From Nitrospirota bacterium (GTDB taxonomy: Bacteria > Nitrospirota > Thermodesulfovibrionia > Thermodesulfovibrionales > JdFR-88): a stretch of DNA of 64,000 bases. The notes under the pieces are model-generated. The model ran no database searches. It worked only from the letters and a program-made list of their open reading frames with translations, and was not told the DNA's origin. Numbering within the stretch: position 1 is the stretch's first letter; every line of letters starts with the position of its first letter. Where the stretch lies: positions 62,771 through 126,770 of the forward strand of contig JAKAKS010000008.1 of NCBI GenBank assembly GCA_021813405.1, given 5' to 3'. Shown here piece after piece: positions 3,151 through 62,301 of this stretch. A program made the translations under genes and the position numbers.

Positions 3151-3381
3151 CCGGTTAGCCGTTACCGCGGCATTTGCCGATATGCCTTTAAGCTCTCATC
3201 TTGGTTTTTTCTTTTTCCGAGGGCGGTGTTCGTCTGCGTTATGGCGCGGTCTTTTCCACCAGATCCACCGTGGTACCATGCGCGGCTCACATGAATACGG
3301 CAAACGGCCATCGCCGCTTGACTGCCGGCAGGTCCGCCGCGCCAATTCGCTCACAACCCGCCACGCTTTGCCCGGTACGTC
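3151..3381 (-). repeat. R1 interspersed structured element, copy A (candidate ncRNA)
   Basis: On the minus strand it contains GTGAGCGAA, CCGTATTCATGTGAGCCGCGC (3280-3300, identical to 58243-58263) and TAACGCAGACGAACACCGCCC (3221-3241), followed by TCGGAAAAAG. Only weak ORFs overlap it. Confidence 0.6.
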
Positions 3382-4089: not shown

Positions 4090-4128
4090 GCGCTTCTTTA
4101 AGATTAAACATCTTTTTATAATAAATCC

Positions 4129-4154
4129 AGGGCGGGGTTCTCCCGCCCTTTTTA
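4129..4154 (+). terminator. Rho-independent terminator
   Basis: AGGGCGGGG-TTCT-CCCGCCCT followed by a T run, 40 nt after the stop at 4089. Confidence 0.75.
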
Positions 4155-4198
4155 CTTCACTTACGCCCCCCGGATTACACCCAACACCCCTCAATACC

Positions 4199-4570
4199 CA
4201 TGACACAAACTTAATGACATATGTCATATTGACGATGTCATGGCCTGCCGGGGTAAGATGGCGCTGGCAGAGGGGCTTGCCCGTTCCTGCTCTTTGAAAA
4301 AATGCCGTAAAATGACCGGCAAGCCGGAGAATAACCGCTAAAACGTTAATGTGACGCGGAGAGGTCCAAATCTCAAAAAAATCTCAAAAAATACGGCCAG
4401 TTACGTCTGGAACAGGCTTTTTGGGGCGAAAAATCAAAAACTTTTAAAATCGGGCAGTCAGGCGGAATTGACAACGGAAAAGATGGAACAAATGGAACAA
4501 AAATTTGGCCTTAAGCGGGCCGGAAATAAACGGAAATCCCGAAATTGCCGGAACATATAAAAAGAAAAGG
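4199..4570 (+). repeat. R2 element copy 1 (nested palindrome, GGA/GGAAC direct repeats, A-rich tail)
   Basis: CATGACACAAACT (4199-4211), TGGAACAAAAATTT (4493-4506) and GGAACATATAAAAAGAAAAGG (4550-4570) are each identical to blocks at 60618-60630, 60997-61010 and 61053-61073. Confidence 0.6.
4200..4243. promoter_or_regulatory. PAL motif: ATGACA-N8-ATGACATATGTCAT-N8-TGTCAT
   Basis: Central perfect 14-bp palindrome ATGACATATGTCAT at 4214-4227, with outer ATGACA/TGTCAT half-sites. Related sites at 16667, 30112 and 60611. Confidence 0.55.
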
Positions 4571-4585
4571 CTTGGCGGGGGCTTT

Positions 4586-16666: not shown

Positions 16667-16705
16667 ATGAATTTCATGACATATGTCATATGGACAATGT
16701 CATGG
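16667..16705. promoter_or_regulatory. PAL motif copy 2
   Basis: ATGAAT-N3-ATGACATATGTCAT-N8-TGTCAT. About 100 bp upstream of the divergent 16568 start codon. Confidence 0.55.
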
Positions 16706-16906
16706 CAACCGGTGTTTCAATAGGGGCAGGGCGGTTTTGTTTTGCCGCCAGGATCTTTTAAAAGCCTGATACAAGACGGGATCGCCACGGCCAATATGGC
16801 CTTGCCATTACAAAGCAAAGATTGAACGGATTTGAACGGTGAAATACGTGAAATGTTTTAAAATCAAAGGCTTGCGGATTTCAGGTTGAACACTAAAAAA
16901 AAGGGG
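16667..16906 (+). repeat. R2 element copy 2 (PAL, ATTTGAACGG direct repeat, A-rich tail), immediately upstream of R1 copy C
   Basis: ATGACATATGTCAT at 16676-16689. ATTGAACGGATTTGAACGG at 16821-16839. TTGAACACTAAAAAAAAGGGGG at 16886-16906 (compare GGAACATATAAAAAGAAAAGG). Confidence 0.55.
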
Positions 16907-56696: not shown

Positions 56697-58072
56697 CGAA
56701 AATCCTCGTCCTGGATGACGAAGATATTGTCCTTAAGGCCTCCAGGCGTGTGCTTGAGTCCGAAGGCTACGCCGTAGAGACCACCGCTTCTCCTGAAAAT
56801 GCCCTGTCCGTAATAGAATCATCCTCCGTGGACATTGTACTGTCCGACCTGAGAATGCCCGGCATGGACGGGCTGGAATTCCTGAAAAAAGCAAGGGAGA
56901 TATCGCCTGAAACCGAGGTGATTATAATAACCGGGCAAGGCACCATAAAAAGCGCCGTGGAGGCGCTTAAGTTCGGGGCCTATGATTTTATAGAAAAACC
57001 CCTCAACCCGGACCAGCTTAAGTCCCTTGTGGCCCGCTGCCTGGAGAGGAAAAACCTGCTGTCGGAAAACCGCGAACTCAAGAAAGAGGTGCGGGCGCTA
57101 TATAACCTTGAAAACGTTATAGGCCGGTCCGCGCCGATGCAGGAGGTTTTCGAGCTTGTGGCGAAGGTGTCCAGGCTGGACACCACCGTTTTGATAGAAG
57201 GCCAGTCCGGCACCGGCAAGGAGCTTGTGGCCAGGGCCATCCATTACAACAGCCCAAGGCGCGACGGCCCCTTTGTGGTGATAGACTGCGTCACCATACC
57301 GGAGAACCTCATGGAGTCCGAACTGTTCGGGCACGTAAAAGGCTCGTTTACGGGGGCTGGGGCAACGGAAAAAGGGCTTGTGGAGCTTGCCAGGGGCGGC
57401 ACCCTGTTTTTTGACGAAATCGGCAACCTGCCCGAGACCGTCCAGGTAAAGCTCCTGCGGCTCCTTCAGGAAAAGGAATTCAGGCCGGTAGGCTCCAGGC
57501 AGATTTTCAAGGCGGACTCCAGGATAATTGCCGCCACAAACGCAAACCTTCAGCAGATGGCCGCCGAAGGCAAATTCCGGGAAGACCTTTATTACAGGCT
57601 TAACGTCTTCCCGATAAAAATGCCGCCCCTCAGCCTGCGCAAGGAGGACATTCCCGCCCTTGTGCGCCATTTCATAAAGAAGCATTCCGCAGCGTCCGGA
57701 CGGCGCAAGCTGCCGGATGTGTCCGTGGAGGCCATGAGCCGGCTGGTAAGGTACGACTGGCCCGGCAATGTCCGCGAGCTTGAAAATTCAATTCAAAGGG
57801 CGCTTATAATGGCGGGCGAACAGAATATAGACGTAAATCATGTGCTGATTGGCGATGAAAGGCGGCTTGCCCCGGCATCCGTTGAGGAGCTTAAACAAAG
57901 GAAGAAAGAGGCCCGCGCCAGGTCAGCCGGCGAGCTTGAGAAATCCTTCCTTATAGACCTGCTTACCAGAAACGGCTGGAACGTAACCCGCGCCGCTGCC
58001 GATGCAGGCATGGAGCGCACCAACTTCCACGCCATGATGAAGAAGCACAGGATAAAAAGACCGGAGAAGTAA
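56693..58072 (+). CDS. Sigma54-dependent response regulator (NtrC/AtoC family)
   Basis: 459 aa. Receiver + AAA+ (GQSGTGKE, GAFTGA-like GSFTGA, ESELFGH) + C-terminal Fis-type HTH. Confidence 0.9.
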   Translation: MTKILVLDDEDIVLKASRRVLESEGYAVETTASPENALSVIESSSVDIVLSDLRMPGMDGLEFLKKAREISPETEVIIITGQGTIKSAVEALKFGAYDFIEKPLNPDQLKSLVARCLERKNLLSENRELKKEVRALYNLENVIGRSAPMQEVFELVAKVSRLDTTVLIEGQSGTGKELVARAIHYNSPRRDGPFVVIDCVTIPENLMESELFGHVKGSFTGAGATEKGLVELARGGTLFFDEIGNLPETVQVKLLRLLQEKEFRPVGSRQIFKADSRIIAATNANLQQMAAEGKFREDLYYRLNVFPIKMPPLSLRKEDIPALVRHFIKKHSAASGRRKLPDVSVEAMSRLVRYDWPGNVRELENSIQRALIMAGEQNIDVNHVLIGDERRLAPASVEELKQRKKEARARSAGELEKSFLIDLLTRNGWNVTRAAADAGMERTNFHAMMKKHRIKRPEK

Positions 58073-58154
58073 AAAAACCTGAATTCTCCCTCCCCCTTCA
58101 GAGAAGAGGGGTTTAAATAACATTATTCCCTTATCCGGTTTAATATAATTTATT

Positions 58155-58410
58155 CCCGGAAGTCCGCCGCGCCAGGTAAGGCGGGGTGGGTAGTGAGCGA
58201 AGTGGCCGGGCGAGCCATTTCTGACCAGTGGCGCGGCGTTGGCCGTATTCATGTGAGCCGCGCGGCGCAGTTCTTAATTTATTGAAGCGAGACTAGGCCC
58301 TGTAACGCAGACGAACCCCGCCCCTCGGAAAAAAGGAAAAACTCAAATGAGAGGGCCAGGCGTACCGGCGAATGCCGCCGGAAAACGGAACAAGAAGGGC
58401 CCCGGACCGG
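58155..58410 (+). repeat. R1 element copy D (candidate ncRNA; best reference copy)
   Basis: AGTCCGCCGCGCC (58161-58173) is complementary to GGCGCGGCG (58230-58238). GTGAGCGAA. CCGTATTCATGTGAGCCGCGC (58243-58263). TAACGCAGACGAACCCCGCC (58303-58322) followed by CCTCGGAAAAAAGG. Confidence 0.6.
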
Positions 58411-58478
58411 AATCAGCAAGAATGGCAATCAGGGGATTAAGCCGGATATGCATTTAAGATTATTCCCTGATGTAAAGT

Positions 58479-58985
58479 TCATTTTCGAAGCCCATTTTTT
58501 ATTTTTAGCAATCCATCTACAACCCTTCTGTTTGACGGGTCTTTCTGGAGGGCCTGTTTTAAATAAAACTCCGCCCGTTCAGGCAGCCCAAGCTTCAGGT
58601 AAACCAGCCCAAGTTCCGCCTGGATGGCTGGGTCCTCCCGGTCCAGCGAAAGCGCGCGGTGAAGTATCTTTACGGCTTCCTTGTGATTTTCCAGCCTGGC
58701 AAGCGTAGAGCCGTAATAAAACATGTATTCCGGTCTTTTCGGGTCCAGCCCCGCAGCGAGGGTGAAAAACACCTCCGCCTTTTTAAAGTCGTTGTTCGAA
58801 TAATAAACCCTGCCCTGGTTGAAATTCTCCGATGCGGATTTTGGGTCCGGCGCAAGCTTTACCGAAGCCCCCGGCCTAAGCGTTGCATCGTAATTTATCC
58901 GTTTCGCGGGGTCTATCAGGTTAGCGTACGCAATCGAAATCCTGGAAAAAATAGCATTGAGCTTGTCCGTCAGTTCCACTGGCAT
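58479..58985 (-). CDS. 3' segment of a frameshifted J-domain/TPR gene (C-terminal J-domain helices plus TPR repeats)
   Basis: 168-aa ORF. The same frame stays open upstream and reads GQKAEPPEIKKAYYKAAREFHPDKNFH before the annotated M. TPR units follow. Confidence 0.7.
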   Translation of the reverse strand: MPVELTDKLNAIFSRISIAYANLIDPAKRINYDATLRPGASVKLAPDPKSASENFNQGRVYYSNNDFKKAEVFFTLAAGLDPKRPEYMFYYGSTLARLENHKEAVKILHRALSLDREDPAIQAELGLVYLKLGLPERAEFYLKQALQKDPSNRRVVDGLLKIKNGLRK

Positions 58986-59038
58986 GTGGAAATTCTTGTC
59001 CGGATGGAATTCCCTGGCGGCCTTGTAATACGCCTTTT

Positions 59039-60301
59039 TTATCTCCGGAGGTTCCGCTTTTTGTCCCAGAGGCCAAGCATTTCGTAATGGTCGTATTTTC
59101 CAAGCATCCGGTGCATCTCGTCTATCCTGGTGATTTGCTCTTTGGTTATATTCAGCGCATTTTCGCTAGCAGCGCTTGTGGGGCCGGTGTTATCGTTCCT
59201 TGTGCTGCCGGCATCACCGGCCGGAACCGGTCCTTCAACTTTCCCGGTGTATGCTCCTCTTGCCGTGGCCGGTTTAGAGCGCCCGGCGTCTTCGCGGCTT
59301 TCTTCCGGTGCGTCCTGGCTTGTTTCAGGCTGGTCTTTCAGCTCAAGGGTCCTTGCGTAGAGCAGGGCGTAAATAGTTTGCAAGGTCTTCGATTCAGGAA
59401 AGGGGGCTTCCTTAACAATTTCACTGAGATGCCGCCGCCCATCCGCCAGAGACATTATCATTTTGTCCTCGGAGGGAATCTTCATCGCCTGGAACAGATG
59501 CAGCGGATAAGAAAAAGGCGCGATAACGGAATCTTCCCGCAGCCCAGCCTCAAAAACCGCATTTTTATCGGCTGTGCGCTTGATGCCGCGATAGATCAGG
59601 TCCGGCGCGGAAATCTTCAGCCGCAGCAGGTTGTCGGGGAGCGGGCCATCATGGAAAAGAAAGGACCCTTCATGTAGGGAAAACACCCCAAGGCAAATCT
59701 CCTCCAGTTGACTGTAAACGGCTTTTATCATGTCATTTGGCGTAAGAGCGCCCAGTTCCACAAGGATGGCGCCCTGTTTCCTGCCGGTGGTTTTTAAAAG
59801 CTCCACGGATTTTTCGTACTGTTGGCGGGTGATTGTCCCCTTCCTAAGAAGCATGTCACCGAGGCTGTCTTCCACCTGGTTGGATGAAGAAAAGACGATA
59901 TTGCCCTGCTGCAAGTATATTTTCCTGACGGCCTGGTCTCTTCTGAATTCCAGAACACCGGTTTCTGCCGCCCCGCAGAGCCCCGTAAATATGTCTGGCG
60001 CCGTGAAAACGGAAAGCGAGCCTTCCACGTTTCTGGCCAGCGAGAGCCCTATTTTCTGGCCGCCGTGCCATATCACTTTGGCTTCGCAATGGAAATCAGG
60101 GTTTTTGCAGGAGACCTCAATTGTCCGGCCTACCGCCGAGAGGATTTTCCTGTCCGCCTGGACGCCTGCGCCCAGGATTGAATAGTCTTGCAGGGTGGCT
60201 TCTGCCGTCTCTTTGTTTATGGTTATCCGGAGCGGATTGTCTTTGCTGTTTTTAAACCTTCTGAACTGCCTTTTTTCGGGCGATTGCCAGCGTTTGCTCA
60301 T
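59039..60301 (-). CDS. 5' segment of the same gene: PilZ + DUF4388 + start of the J domain
   Basis: PilZ motifs RQFRR and DYSILG. DUF4388-like LEFRRDQAVRKIYLQQGNIVFSSS...LGDMLLRKGTIT. Ends ...KYDHYEMLGLWDKKRNLRR*, so the J domain is interrupted. Confidence 0.7.
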   Translation of the reverse strand: MSKRWQSPEKRQFRRFKNSKDNPLRITINKETAEATLQDYSILGAGVQADRKILSAVGRTIEVSCKNPDFHCEAKVIWHGGQKIGLSLARNVEGSLSVFTAPDIFTGLCGAAETGVLEFRRDQAVRKIYLQQGNIVFSSSNQVEDSLGDMLLRKGTITRQQYEKSVELLKTTGRKQGAILVELGALTPNDMIKAVYSQLEEICLGVFSLHEGSFLFHDGPLPDNLLRLKISAPDLIYRGIKRTADKNAVFEAGLREDSVIAPFSYPLHLFQAMKIPSEDKMIMSLADGRRHLSEIVKEAPFPESKTLQTIYALLYARTLELKDQPETSQDAPEESREDAGRSKPATARGAYTGKVEGPVPAGDAGSTRNDNTGPTSAASENALNITKEQITRIDEMHRMLGKYDHYEMLGLWDKKRNLRR

Positions 60302-60610
60302 GCGGCTTCCGCAAATGAGATGAGGTTTGTTGTAAACCTGTTAGCGCAAGGAACTGATTTAAAAAAACATAAAATACGCAACAGTACCTGATTCCTCTAC
60401 TTTTTGGCTCTATATTTGTACCAGTTATATCCACCAAATTTCAAGCGTTTTTTCAAGTTGGTCCGCTTAACTCACTAATTATTCATTCTTTCCATTAATT
60501 CCGGTGACACAAATCAGCGTTTGTTTGAAGGGAAGTAAACGGCTCAGGCGGAATGGGCATGAGTCCCGGTTTTCCTGTGTACTCAACACTCCTTGGCCTG
60601 TATCCCTTCC

Positions 60611-60668
60611 GGCAAAGCATGACACAAACTTTATGATATATGTCATATGGACTATGTCATGCTTTGCC
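60611..60668. promoter_or_regulatory. PAL motif copy 4, with 14-nt outer inverted arms
   Basis: GGCAAAGCATGACA-N8-ATGATATATGTCAT-N8-TGTCATGCTTTGCC. Confidence 0.55.
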
Positions 60669-61073
60669 GTGTTATGATCGCGGGTGGCGGGAACCCACCC
60701 CGGCCCTGCGCCCACCCCTCCGAAGAGGGTGGTTGCCAAAGGCCCTTTAAAAAAGACATCTGCCGGAATAGGTGATAACGCAAATGCCAAATTAGATTCC
60801 CGGTTAAAACGATCGGCAATGGCGGAGAAAAGATTTTTAAAGGCAGGGGTTTACAAACGTAAAAGGCTTGAAAAAACAGGAGGTTAGGTTTGTTCCAATT
60901 TTTTAGTTATGTTGCAGGCTGGAAGTTGAAATCATTAAAAAACGGGCACTTAGGGGTGGGGCTTCACTGCGAAAAGTATGGAACAGATGGAACAAGTGGA
61001 ACAAAAATTTAGGCCCAAGTTATTGAAAATAAAACGAAATACCAAAAAAGCTGGAACATATAAAAAGAAAAGG
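60611..61073 (+). repeat. R2 element copy 3 (extended palindrome, GGAAC triple repeat, A-rich tail)
   Basis: GGCAAAGCATGACA...TGTCATGCTTTGCC. ATGGAACAGATGGAACAAGTGGAACAAAAATTT at 60978-61010. GGAACATATAAAAAGAAAAGG at 61053-61073. Confidence 0.6.
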
Positions 61074-61320
61074 GGAAAATCAAGGTGAACAGATTCCCCT
61101 GGCCGCTGGAAAGGCGATGCAAAAAAACCTGCGCCCATATTACAATAACGCATTGCGCATGGAGGGGAGATAAACTGAAACGCCCGCTCAATTTTCTTAT
61201 TCCTTTCCACTTTCATTTTTCCGGCTCAATCGATCGCTTCCGGCAAAACAGACCATCTCCGCGCACTGGCAAGGCAGATAGTTTTGCAATCTCCAGGGGC
61301 AAACCCTCGCTTGTACGGAA

Positions 61321-61370
61321 ATGCGTGGTGGCCGGGATGTTTTATATCAGGCGCGGCATTCATGAGATGT
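61321..61370 (+). repeat. Partial R1 5' module (copy E), downstream of R2 copy 3
   Basis: GCGTGGTGGCCGGG...CAGGCGCGGCATTCATGAGATG (compare GTGGCCGGGCG...GTGGCGCGGCGTTGGCCGTATTCATGTGAGC at 58201-58257). Confidence 0.4.
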
Positions 61371-61437
61371 TTCTGGAACTAAATTCTGATTGGCCGAAGG
61401 CCGGTTATTTAAAAAATACCAAGCAAGGAGAATTTTG

Positions 61438-62301
61438 ATGCCCATGCTATTTCCCCCTCGGTTTGATTTCCGTTCCGTTTTCCGTGCTACCCTGGTTGCC
61501 GTTTTGCTTATTCCCCTTGCGGGCGTGTCTGTGGCGGGGGCCGACGGCGTTTCCAGGGCCGGCAAACTGGCCAGCGGTCATGAAGACGCTGTTATCACAG
61601 TAAAGGCCATCACCAGGATAAGCATTATGGTTGGAGGCAAGGAAGTATCTAAAACAGAAGATGCAGTGGAGACGCCCGCCACGATAATAGACCCCTCCGG
61701 GCTGGCGGTGCTGTCTTCCTCCAGGATAGACCCGTCCAAGCTTTACAAGCAGATAATCGACAAACTTAAATCCGGCCAGGAACAGGCCAAGTTCGAGGTG
61801 CAGACAACCATATCGGATATAAAAATGCTTACAGCCGGCGGCGACGAGCTGCCGGCAAAACTGGTGATGCGGGACAAGGATATGGACCTGGCCTTTGTAA
61901 AACCCGCTAAGGCCCCGGCCAGTCCGATGCCCTGGCTGGACCTCTCTGACAGCAGCAAGCCCGATATGCTAAGCCGTGTTGTGATACTTACCAGGCTGGG
62001 AAAGCCTGCCGGGTATATCCCTTCGCTATCCTTGTACAGGGTGGAGGCCGTAATAAAAAAACCATCGGTCTTTTACATGACGGACCAGAACATTATGCAG
62101 GGCAAACTGGGCGCGCCCGCTTTTACGCTGGATGGGAAGCCCGCCGGGATAGTGGTCCTTAGGTTCAATAATGTTGGGCAGAAGATATCGAGCATGGACA
62201 GGATATTCTACGGCCTGGACGGGTTTGGAATGTTCCCGGTGATAATCCCCTCTGCCCAGGTGCTGAGCGAGGCCAAACACATACTGAGCACAAAAAAATA
62301 A
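61438..62301 (+). CDS. Secreted trypsin-like (S1C/DegP-type fold) protein, apparently catalytically inactive
   Basis: Start ATG 61438 behind AAGGAG. DMDLAFVKP (Asp region). GKLGAPAF occupies the position of the GNSGGP serine motif. Confidence 0.55.
   Translation: MPMLFPPRFDFRSVFRATLVAVLLIPLAGVSVAGADGVSRAGKLASGHEDAVITVKAITRISIMVGGKEVSKTEDAVETPATIIDPSGLAVLSSSRIDPSKLYKQIIDKLKSGQEQAKFEVQTTISDIKMLTAGGDELPAKLVMRDKDMDLAFVKPAKAPASPMPWLDLSDSSKPDMLSRVVILTRLGKPAGYIPSLSLYRVEAVIKKPSVFYMTDQNIMQGKLGAPAFTLDGKPAGIVVLRFNNVGQKISSMDRIFYGLDGFGMFPVIIPSAQVLSEAKHILSTKK

What the first reader, a model, noticed from the sequence alone, without database searches (positions are those of the whole stretch)
58479..60301. 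PilZ-DUF4388-DnaJ-TPR gene split by a frameshift inside the J domain
ORF 59039-60301 (minus strand) encodes a PilZ domain (RQFRR and DYSILG motifs), a DUF4388-like domain, a low-complexity linker and the start of a J domain. It ends ...KYDHYEMLGL, then runs into WDKKRNLRR*. Shifting frame at about 59063-59077 (minus-strand CTTGGCCTCTGGGAC) gives ...PLGQKAEPPEIKKAYYKAAREFHPDKNFHMPVELTDKLNAIFSRISIAYANLIDPAKRINYD. This is the rest of a canonical J domain with the HPD motif. It continues into the TPR ORF 58479-58985.

One missing base relative to an intact gene would restore a protein of about 600 aa. Possible explanations are an assembly indel, a recent pseudogene, or (less likely, as no slippery heptamer is visible) programmed frameshifting. 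The architecture itself, a putative c-di-GMP receptor fused to an Hsp70 co-chaperone J domain, is unusual and worth noting.
Basis: partly seen in the sequence, partly recalled or inferred. Interest (0 to 1): 0.55.

Follow-up and report, generated by a model that had tools for sequence, protein, structure and literature searches.

The report
One-base deletion splits a co-chaperone gene
A real one-base deletion in a run of six A's has recently cut an otherwise common Nitrospirota signalling co-chaperone gene (PilZ–PATAN–J domain–TPR) in two, so this is most likely an ordinary young pseudogene or truncated allele, not an assembly error or a programmed recoding event.

Summary
On the minus strand, ORF 60301-59039 (420 aa) carries PilZ, PATAN/DUF4388, a disordered linker and J-domain helix I. 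The -1 frame continues with the rest of the J domain (HPD at 59006-58998) and three TPRs, down to 58479.

The lesion can be placed to the base. The syntenic orthologue (607 aa, 90% identical) and two further relatives read GGGAC-AAAAAA-GC (A6). The window reads A5 (59058-59062). Inserting one A gives a 607-aa protein with a full-length Pfam DnaJ match.

The A5 allele is on at least 10 contigs, and the five loci read come from five separate assemblies made by different pipelines. It is therefore real DNA, not an assembly indel.

Programmed frameshifting is not supported. Orthologues are in frame, there is no downstream RNA structure, and there is no SD-like stimulator at the right distance. The deletion does create C_AAA_AAG, which contains the shift-prone A_AAG. 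A -1 slip there would rebuild the ancestral protein exactly, so low-level leakiness is possible.

No further decay is visible, so the event is young. The architecture is not rare: more than 100 protein clusters carry it, mostly in Nitrospirota, and PilZ-DnaJ/DnaK fusions are already catalogued in Myxococcus. Interest is low.

The parts
59039..60301 (-). ORF1, 420 aa (identical to database protein P0001 / NCBI MDA8155152.1). This is the N-terminal part of the broken gene: PilZ, PATAN, linker, J-domain helix I, then 5 out-of-frame codons (RNLRR) and TAA.
60038..60277 (-). PilZ domain (residues 9-88), with RxxxR (R11-R15) and DxSxxG (D39-G44).
   Evidence: Pfam gives 23.2-27.5 bits against a 22.5 cutoff. 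All 23 family N-termini match PilZ. D39 and S41 are invariant; R11, R15 and G44 are at least 90% conserved. The model is all beta-strand here.
59336..60025 (-). PATAN / DUF4388 (PF14332) domain with its helical insertion. The Pfam match covers residues 93-243; the folded unit in the model runs to about residue 322.
   Evidence: Pfam 65.9 bits against a cutoff of 25; AF2 pLDDT 84-96 over most of the region.
59153..59329 (-). Low-complexity disordered linker (residues 325-383).
   Evidence: pLDDT is below 50 over residues 325-383. Only 70% nt identity to the orthologue over residues 361-390, against 92-98% in the folded domains upstream of it.
59057..59143 (-). J-domain helix I and the loop to K415 (…KYDHYEMLGLWDKK), the last residues still in frame.
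59058..59062 (-). The lesion: an A5 run (T5 on the + strand) where orthologues have A6. It is the only indel inside coding sequence across 5.5 kb of aligned orthologous DNA.
59057..59063 (-). C_AAA_AAG in the 0 frame, created by the deletion. It contains the A_AAG -1 shift-prone tetranucleotide.
   Evidence: Read directly from the sequence. Motif properties are from PMC5009743.
58878..59057 (-). Remainder of the J domain in the -1 frame (helices II-IV, repaired residues 416-475). The HPD codons lie at 59006-58998.
58479..58985 (-). ORF2 as callable from its first canonical start (ATG 58985), 168 aa. It begins downstream of the HPD and has no SD-like sequence. It contains J helices III-IV and the TPR domain.
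58485..58844 (-). Three-repeat TPR domain (repaired residues 487-606).
   Evidence: Pfam TPR_2, TPR_1 and TPR_8. pLDDT 90-98. Foldseek TM 0.9 to three-repeat TPR domains.

Best explanation
This is a single gene for a class-III J-domain co-chaperone with the architecture PilZ - PATAN(DUF4388) - disordered linker - J domain - 3xTPR. A genuine one-base deletion has broken it in this lineage: an A6 homopolymer in the loop between J-domain helices I and II contracted to A5.

Inferred role of the intact protein (from domain knowledge, not shown here): the PilZ barrel binds c-di-GMP; the PATAN and TPR domains hold a partner or client; the J domain, through its HPD, recruits DnaK (Hsp70) and triggers its ATPase. 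Chaperone action on that client would thus be tied to c-di-GMP level.

In the window's lineage, translation ends 5 codons after the deletion. The main product is a 420-aa PilZ-PATAN protein with no HPD, so it cannot act on DnaK. The TPR part can start independently only at Met441, downstream of the HPD, and without a ribosome-binding site.

The gene is therefore most likely a young pseudogene or loss-of-function (truncation) allele that has become fixed in one Nitrospirota population. Because the deletion created C_AAA_AAG, a small fraction of ribosomes may slip -1 and remake the ancestral 607-aa protein. That would be incidental leakiness, not an evolved recoding signal.
For: Shown:
(1) Three intact relatives read GGGACAAAAAAGC (A6), encoding …LGLWDKKAE…: the syntenic orthologue (L011-L014, protein P0121, 607 aa, 90% identical, same SurA / 74-aa / trypsin-like and sigma54-RR / RR / HK neighbours), P0002 (67% identical) and P0003 (62% identical in alignment A1). 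The window reads A5.
(2) Adding one A gives 607 aa with a full-length DnaJ match at 52.6 bits.
(3) The A5 allele with the same junction is on at least 10 contigs. The 5 loci read come from two ENA MEGAHIT assemblies, two NCBI MAGs and a Logan assembly of SRR17201078. They differ from the window by up to about 10 SNPs elsewhere and by none inside the gene.
(4) It is the only coding indel in 5.5 kb aligned to the orthologous locus. The window is otherwise about 91% coding with intact ORFs up to 1036 aa.
(5) No ATG/GTG/TTG occurs in the -1 frame upstream of ATG 58985, which lies 3' of the HPD codons.
(6) There is no sign of long-term decay. The -1 frame has no stop over 192 codons. dN/dS against the orthologue is 0.26 downstream and 0.35 upstream. 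The window's variant residues are as family-compatible downstream as upstream.
(7) Domain calls hold across the family: HPD is invariant, RxxxR and DxSxxG are conserved, and 23 of 23 N-termini match Pfam PilZ. The AF2 model (pLDDT 80.5) shows four folded modules plus a disordered linker.

Inferred: the protein's function, from what is established for PilZ, J domains, and PATAN regulators that bind the type IV pilus motor (bioRxiv 10.1101/2021.06.11.447907, title and abstract; PMC12448109).
Against: The downstream frame is perfectly intact and shows no clear relaxation. That fits a very recent event but equally fits continued expression.

Lineage-polarised amino-acid changes are 8 (window) to 2 (orthologue) downstream, against 7 to 10 upstream. 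This hints weakly at relaxation, is not statistically significant, and most of the changes are conservative.

The A5 allele is the only allele seen for this lineage, so its loss is at least tolerated and could even be advantageous. No reads, transcript data or protein data were available. The five assemblies may come from one study site, so fixation is shown only for the sampled population.
Confidence: 0.75

Rival explanations
1. Compensated ('leaky') frameshift. The A5 allele is functional because ribosomes slip -1 on C_AAA_AAG at a useful rate. This would give mostly a truncated PilZ-PATAN protein plus some full-length co-chaperone, either tuning expression or creating a two-product gene.
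For: The 0-frame sequence GAC_AAA_AAG contains A_AAG, the minimal and classic bacterial -1 shift site (PMC5009743). A slip there reproduces the ancestral peptide exactly. The 0-frame stop lies only 6 codons downstream. Single-base deletions are suppressed by unprogrammed -1 slippage at about 1-10% in E. coli (PMC10861913). The downstream frame shows no decay.
Against: All orthologues are in frame, so the arrangement is not conserved. The 47 and 97 nt downstream fold no better than shuffled sequence (z = +0.37 and -0.32). The only SD-like element (GGGA) starts 5 nt upstream of the A-run, not at the stimulatory 10-14 nt. The P-site re-pairing AAA to CAA is imperfect. In-frame AAA_AAG occurs 18 times in ordinary long genes of this window, and AAG is used as often as AAA (469 vs 429), which suggests the dicodon is not strongly shifty here. 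Suppression efficiency depends strongly on the organism.
Confidence: 0.13
2. Assembly or sequencing artefact. The real genome has A6, and the missing base is a homopolymer error.
For: The lesion sits in a homopolymer, the commonest site for indel errors. No reads could be inspected.
Against: The same A5 junction appears in five assemblies from different pipelines (MEGAHIT k141 contigs, NCBI MAGs, Logan), with small SNP differences between them, and on at least 10 contigs in all. The exact repaired protein is absent from a collection of about 15 billion proteins. The window has no other fragmented genes. A 6-nt homopolymer is not an error-prone context for short-read assemblies (own knowledge).
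Confidence: 0.03
3. Phase variation. The A-tract is a contingency locus that switches the gene on (A6) and off (A5) by slipped-strand mispairing.
For: The on and off states differ by one unit of a homopolymer, and both tract lengths exist among close relatives.
Against: Tract length tracks lineage and does not vary within a lineage. Every contig of the window's lineage carries the A5 product, and the loci read for P0121, P0002 and P0003 are all A6. A tract of 5-6 nt is shorter than typical contingency tracts of 7-8 nt or more (own knowledge). Direct scans of a metagenome collection for A5, A6 or A7 in this background found nothing.
Confidence: 0.04
4. Functional gene fission. The two ORFs now work as separate proteins, a PilZ-PATAN sensor and a TPR protein.
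For: Both ORFs are intact and both are annotated as separate proteins in public records. Natural family members lacking the TPR part (for example P0048, P0053) or the PilZ domain exist.
Against: The break falls inside a domain, in the loop between J helices I and II, not at a domain boundary. ORF2 has no canonical start before Met441 and no SD. NCBI's 187-aa model has to start at an ATA codon. No relative shows a two-gene arrangement.
Confidence: 0.05

Closest known systems
PilZ-DnaK (CsdK1, CsdK2) and PilZ-DnaJ proteins of Myxococcus xanthus (PMC10313047; PMC8316039)
   Same: A c-di-GMP receptor domain (PilZ) is fused to a component of the Hsp70 system. Kuzmich et al. list four M. xanthus PilZ proteins that carry a DnaK or DnaJ domain.
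   Different: The family here also has a PATAN domain and a C-terminal TPR domain, and it is mostly from Nitrospirota. No homology to the Myxococcus proteins beyond the shared domains was tested. No member of this family has been studied experimentally, as far as the searchable library shows.
PATAN-domain regulators (PatA of Anabaena; PixG/PixH/LsiR-type response regulators of Synechocystis)
   Same: They share the PATAN/DUF4388 domain (PF14332, 65.9 bits). In cyanobacteria this domain mediates binding to the type IV pilus motor (bioRxiv 10.1101/2021.06.11.447907; PMC12448109).
   Different: Those proteins pair PATAN with a receiver domain. Here PATAN is flanked by PilZ and by J + TPR. A link to pili is hinted at only by one distant homologue that sits next to pseudopilin genes.
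Programmed -1 ribosomal frameshifting at A_AAA_AAG (E. coli dnaX, IS3-family transposases)
   Same: An A_AAG A-site slip motif sits in the 0 frame, and the downstream ORF is in the -1 frame.
   Different: The first position of the heptamer is C. There is no stimulatory hairpin or SD, and the arrangement is not conserved in orthologues.
'Savior' or compensated indels with low-level frameshifting (for example the G-run of herpesvirus thymidine kinase; reviewed in PMC5009743)
   Same: A one-base change in a homopolymer inactivates a gene while leaving a shift-prone run that could allow trace synthesis of the full product.
   Different: No evidence here of any benefit from the indel, nor of any frameshifted product.
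Class III (type C) J-domain proteins with TPR domains, such as eukaryotic DNAJC7/DNAJC3 (own knowledge)
   Same: A J domain is combined with a TPR partner-binding module. There is no G/F region, zinc finger or DnaJ_C domain.
   Different: The domain order is reversed (TPR is C-terminal here), the protein is bacterial, and it has added PilZ and PATAN sensor modules.

Membership tests
PilZ domain (PF07238) | Profile match at or above Pfam's gathering score | tested here: met
   23.2 bits (ORF1) and 27.5 bits (N-terminus alone) against a cutoff of 22.5. All 23 of 23 family N-termini match, best E-value 1.5e-13.
PilZ domain (PF07238) | RxxxR and (D/N)xSxxG c-di-GMP-binding motifs | tested here: met
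   R11-QFR-R15 and D39-Y-S41-IL-G44. D39 and S41 are invariant; R11, R15 and G44 are at least 90% conserved.
PilZ domain (PF07238) | Beta-barrel fold matching solved PilZ structures | tested here: inconclusive
   The AF2 model is all beta-strand over residues 23-95 with pLDDT 75-86. However, the listed Foldseek hits (top 50) were all TPR or TPR-like helical-repeat proteins, and profile-to-PDB sequence hits to BcsA and PA4608 were weak (E 0.13-0.24).
PilZ domain (PF07238) | Binds c-di-GMP | not testable with these tools
   Needs DRaCALA, ITC or a similar assay on residues 1-95.
J-domain protein (PF00226), class III | Complete four-helix J domain with an HPD tripeptide in one polypeptide | tested here: not met
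   As encoded, helix I is in ORF1, while HPD and helices II-IV are in the -1 frame. The ancestral gene and its orthologues do meet this feature.
J-domain protein (PF00226), class III | No G/F region, zinc finger or DnaJ_C (which would make it class A or B) | tested here: met
   No DnaJ_C or DnaJ_CXXCXGXG hit in Pfam.
PATAN / DUF4388 (PF14332) | Profile match above the gathering score | tested here: met
   65.9 bits against a cutoff of 25, profile positions 1-118 of 122.
Programmed -1 ribosomal frameshift site | X_XXY_YYZ slippery heptamer in the 0 frame | tested here: inconclusive
   C_AAA_AAG: the A-site half (A_AAG) is canonical, but the P-site half re-pairs at only 2 of 3 positions (PMC5009743).
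Programmed -1 ribosomal frameshift site | Stimulatory downstream structure and/or an upstream SD-like element at 10-14 nt | tested here: not met
   Fold z-scores are -0.32 and +0.37 relative to shuffles. The only SD-like element (GGGA) starts 5 nt upstream of the A-run.
Programmed -1 ribosomal frameshift site | Frameshift arrangement conserved among orthologues | tested here: not met
   P0121 (4 loci), P0002 and P0003 are in frame with A6. More distant members lack the tract altogether.
Phase-variable homopolymer (contingency) locus | Tract-length polymorphism within a population | tested here: not met
   All contigs of this lineage carry the A5 product, and no intact allele of this lineage is in the protein collection. 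Read-level minorities could not be examined.
Frameshift pseudogene | Collinear intact orthologues, with the lesion inside a conserved domain | tested here: met
   The syntenic locus L012 is 94-97% identical in nucleotides with an intact 607-aa gene. The lesion lies between J helices I and II.
Frameshift pseudogene | Secondary degradation (further stops or indels, relaxed dN/dS) | tested here: not met
   No further stops or indels. dN/dS downstream is 0.26. There is no excess of family-incompatible residues. This is compatible with a very young pseudogene or with residual function.

The most novel reading that the evidence does not exclude
The A5 allele is not dead but recoded by accident. The deletion that broke the gene also created an A_AAG shift site whose -1 slip restores the ancestral protein exactly. 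The cell would then make mostly a J-less PilZ-PATAN protein (a c-di-GMP-binding competitor or decoy) plus a small, possibly condition-dependent amount of the full co-chaperone. That would be a natural 'savior indel' caught at the moment a two-product recoding site is born.
Probability: 0.1. Interest if true: 0.5.

Novelty: new member of a known kind. Interest (0 to 1): 0.2.

Why it matters
The practical value is mainly for annotation. Two public protein records (MDA8155152.1, a 'DUF4388 domain-containing protein', and MDA8155151.1, a 'tetratricopeptide repeat protein' modelled from an ATA start) are really two halves of one frameshifted gene.

The finding also draws attention to a sizeable and uncharacterised family in Nitrospirota and Thermodesulfovibrionales that joins a c-di-GMP receptor domain and a PATAN domain to an Hsp70 co-chaperone J domain. 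That family, not this broken copy, would be the sensible target for asking how c-di-GMP might steer chaperone action.

The frameshift itself is ordinary. Its one mildly instructive feature is that a homopolymer contraction automatically leaves a shift-prone A_AAG, which could soften the loss.

Tried and rejected
- RNA structure downstream of the slip site (47 and 97 nt) was no better than shuffled sequence.
- Rfam found nothing at the locus, either at gathering thresholds over the whole window or at permissive thresholds over 58000-61500.
- Two scans of the JGI metagenome contig collection for the junction with A5, A6 or A7 found nothing. One used the window-specific flank and one a flank shared with the orthologue. 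The lineage is absent there, so this gave no population information.
- The dip in identity around 59201-58903 was examined as a possible recombination tract. It is mostly the fast-evolving linker, and distances to the outgroup are symmetric. The J region does have raised dS (0.44), which remains unexplained.
- The decay test using family-compatibility of variant residues gave no signal.
- The profile-to-PDB sequence search for PilZ gave only weak hits.
- In the Foldseek search with the whole model, the listed top hits were all TPR or TPR-like helical-repeat proteins, so it said nothing about the PilZ or PATAN folds.
- No conserved gene neighbourhood was found across distant family members.
- P0002 was considered as an intact paralogue in the same genome. 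This is unlikely: its locus (L006) is 47.8% GC against 53.9% for the window, and it occurs in different MAG accessions.
Full report
**1. Observation.**
- On the minus strand, an ORF runs from ATG 60301 to TAA 59041-59039 (420 aa) and ends …KYDHYEMLGLWDKKRNLRR*.
- The -1 (= +2) frame is open from 59165 (after the stop codon at 59168-59166). From 59057 it reads AEPPEIKKAYYKAAREFHPDKNFHMPVEL… through to the stop at 58481-58479.
- The first canonical start in that frame is ATG 58985, giving the 168-aa ORF.

Pfam results:
- ORF1 contains PilZ (residues 9-88; 23.2 bits against a 22.5 cutoff) and DUF4388/PatA_N (65.9 bits).
- ORF2 contains three TPRs and only a sub-threshold tail of the DnaJ profile.
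- After conceptual repair, the 607-aa protein gains a complete DnaJ match (52.6 bits, profile positions 1-63 of 63).

**2. The exact lesion.**
A homology search with the repaired protein returned the truncated 420-aa product itself (P0001) and more than 100 full-length relatives of about 560 aa with the same domain set. The 90%-identity cluster of P0001 also holds an intact 607-aa protein, P0121.

P0121 is the true orthologue. Its gene sits in the same neighbourhood as here: SurA-like, 74-aa ORF and trypsin-like on one side; sigma54 response regulator, response regulator and histidine kinase on the other. Its locus is 94-97% identical in nucleotides to the window.

At the junction, all four P0121-type loci read CTCTGGGAC-AAAAAA-GCC, and P0002 (67% identical) and P0003 (62% identical in alignment A1) have the same GGGAC-AAAAAA-GC core (A6) in slightly different flanks. 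The window reads CTCTGGGAC-AAAAA-GCG (A5, 59058-59062). More distant members lack the tract.

Inserting one A gives …LGLWDKKAEPPEIKK…, which is collinear with …LGLWDKKAEPSEIKK… in the orthologue. Across 5.5 kb of aligned orthologous DNA, this is the only indel inside coding sequence.

**3. Real or artefact?**
The exact 420-aa product is encoded on at least 10 contigs. The five loci retrieved come from two ENA MEGAHIT assemblies, two NCBI MAGs and a Logan assembly of SRR17201078.
- All five carry the identical junction.
- They differ from the window by up to about 10 substitutions elsewhere and by none inside the gene.
- The window itself is a clean assembly: about 91% coding, with uninterrupted ORFs up to 1036 aa.

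An assembly or sequencing indel is therefore very unlikely. One caveat: the assemblies may derive from one study site, so fixation is shown only for the sampled population.

**4. Programmed frameshift?**
A_AAG is the minimal -1 shift site in bacteria, and A_AAA_AAG is the dnaX site (PMC5009743). A -1 slip on this site would yield exactly the ancestral peptide. Unprogrammed -1 slippage suppresses single-base deletions at about 1-10% in E. coli, but far less in other bacteria (PMC10861913).

Evidence against a programmed event:
- Every orthologue is in frame.
- The 47 and 97 nt downstream fold no better than shuffles (z = +0.37 and -0.32).
- There is no SD-like element 10-14 nt upstream.
- The first heptamer position is C.
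- In-frame AAA_AAG occurs 18 times in ordinary long genes of this window, and AAG is used as often as AAA.

Low-level incidental frameshifting remains possible. An evolved recoding signal is not supported.

**5. Phase variation and gene fission.**
Tract length follows lineage (A5 only here, A6 only in relatives), and the tract is short. Scans of another metagenome collection for either allele found nothing.

Fission into two working genes is also unlikely:
- The break lies inside a domain, in the loop between J helices I (405-408) and II (418-432) of the model.
- The downstream frame has no ATG/GTG/TTG before Met441, which is 3' of the HPD codons (59006-58998) and has no ribosome-binding site.
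- NCBI's 187-aa model for the second half has to start at an ATA codon.

**6. Age.**
- The downstream frame has no stop over 192 codons.
- dN/dS against the orthologue is 0.26 downstream and 0.35 upstream.
- Where the window differs from the orthologue, its residues are as compatible with the wider family downstream as upstream.
- Polarising changes with P0002 as outgroup gives 8 window-lineage to 2 orthologue-lineage amino-acid changes downstream, against 7 to 10 upstream. This is a weak, non-significant hint of relaxation, and most of the changes are conservative.

The deletion is therefore young relative to the roughly 5% nucleotide divergence from the sister lineage.

**7. What the gene is.**
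The AF2 model built on a 44-sequence family alignment (mean pLDDT 80.5) shows five parts:
- an N-terminal all-beta module (residues 16-95);
- a mixed alpha/beta PATAN module (101-322);
- a disordered linker (325-383);
- a helical J domain (387-475);
- a three-repeat TPR domain (487-606).

Conservation supports these calls. HPD is invariant across the family. In the PilZ-bearing members, D39 and S41 are invariant and R11, R15 and G44 are at least 90% conserved. All 23 N-termini tested match Pfam PilZ. A sub-clade lacks the PilZ module altogether.

The TPR domain superposes at TM about 0.9 on three-repeat TPR domains, including the Hsp70/Hsp90 co-chaperones SGT, RPAP3, Hop and CHIP. That is generic for this fold, so no inference is drawn from it.

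The gene neighbourhood is not conserved among distant members: one lies beside pseudopilin genes, one beside RodZ, and one near a CbpA-type DnaJ.

The likely mechanism of the intact protein is inferred from the established roles of the domains. c-di-GMP binding to PilZ would modulate a PATAN/TPR-bound partner, and the J domain would deliver that partner to DnaK. PATAN domains bind the type IV pilus motor in Synechocystis (bioRxiv 10.1101/2021.06.11.447907).

**8. Comparison with what is known.**
PilZ fused to Hsp70-system components is already documented. M. xanthus has four PilZ proteins with DnaK or DnaJ domains (PMC8316039), and the PilZ-DnaK chaperones CsdK1 and CsdK2 have been studied (PMC10313047). 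The four-domain architecture here is common in Nitrospirota and Thermodesulfovibrionales MAGs, but the searchable literature holds no characterised member.

**9. Verdict.**
This is a confirmed, genuine and recent A6-to-A5 deletion that truncates a class-III J-domain co-chaperone after J helix I. It is most likely a young pseudogene or loss-of-function allele fixed in one Nitrospirota population (confidence about 0.75). About 0.13 goes to functionally relevant compensatory -1 slippage at the newly created C_AAA_AAG. It is ordinary as a genomic event. The protein family, not this broken copy, is what might merit experiments.

Noticed in passing
window ~58135-58454 (related copy at window 3167-3375): An insertion of about 320 nt relative to the orthologous locus L012. 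It lies between the stop of the TPR ORF and the stop of the convergent sigma54-RR gene. It has imperfect terminal inverted repeats (58116-58144 / 58436-58464, 29 nt, 72% complementary) and a flanking direct repeat …TTATTCCC. A 70%-identical 214-nt copy lies at 3167-3375 on the opposite strand. It looks like a small MITE-like mobile element acquired by the same lineage that carries the frameshift.
   Followed up: partly
window 60302-61389, with paralogous blocks at 4199-4263, 4476-4570 and 16670-16706: A 1.1-kb gene-free region lies upstream of the split gene. It is conserved (92-96%) in the orthologous locus apart from a 42-nt indel near 60750. Two blocks recur in the 496-nt convergent intergenic region 4090-4585. 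One is a palindromic ATGACA/TGTCAT array (60618-60682, 83% identical to its copy). The other is a TGGAACA-repeat block ending …CTGGAACATATAAAAAGAAAAGG (60980-61073, 79% identical). There is no Rfam match. It could be a regulator-binding module or an unannotated small RNA.
   Followed up: partly
public records for this contig (P0001/P0123: MDA8155152.1, MDA8155151.1): NCBI labels the proteins encoded on this contig (P0001, P0123), and P0002, 'Actinomycetota bacterium'. However, the 94-97% identical orthologous locus is in MAGs labelled Nitrospirae/Nitrospiraceae, and named homologues are mostly from Nitrospirota or Thermodesulfovibrionales. This is probably a taxonomic mislabel. The second half of the gene is annotated as a 187-aa protein starting at an ATA codon, which hides the split.
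   Followed up: partly
window 58878-59057 (J-domain remainder): Synonymous divergence from the orthologue is about three times higher here (dS 0.44; 13 synonymous differences in about 39 sites) than in the rest of the gene (0.07-0.27; 0.15 over the whole upstream part). The polarised synonymous counts are symmetric (3 vs 3). No clear recombination donor was found, and this remains unexplained.
   Followed up: partly
family alignment A1 (P0062-P0113 rows): A large sub-clade of the family starts directly at the PATAN domain and lacks the PilZ module. The c-di-GMP input is therefore an optional add-on to a PATAN-J-TPR core.
   Followed up: no
L006 875-2049 vs L007 875-1735 + 1732-2049 (neighbour of the P0002 gene): An IS3-type transposase (HTH_Tnp_1 + rve) is called as one 391-aa product in the NCBI record but as overlapping 105-aa and 286-aa ORFs in the ENA assembly of the same locus. 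That is the usual signature of a genuine programmed -1 frameshift in an IS element, a useful contrast to the case studied here.
   Followed up: no
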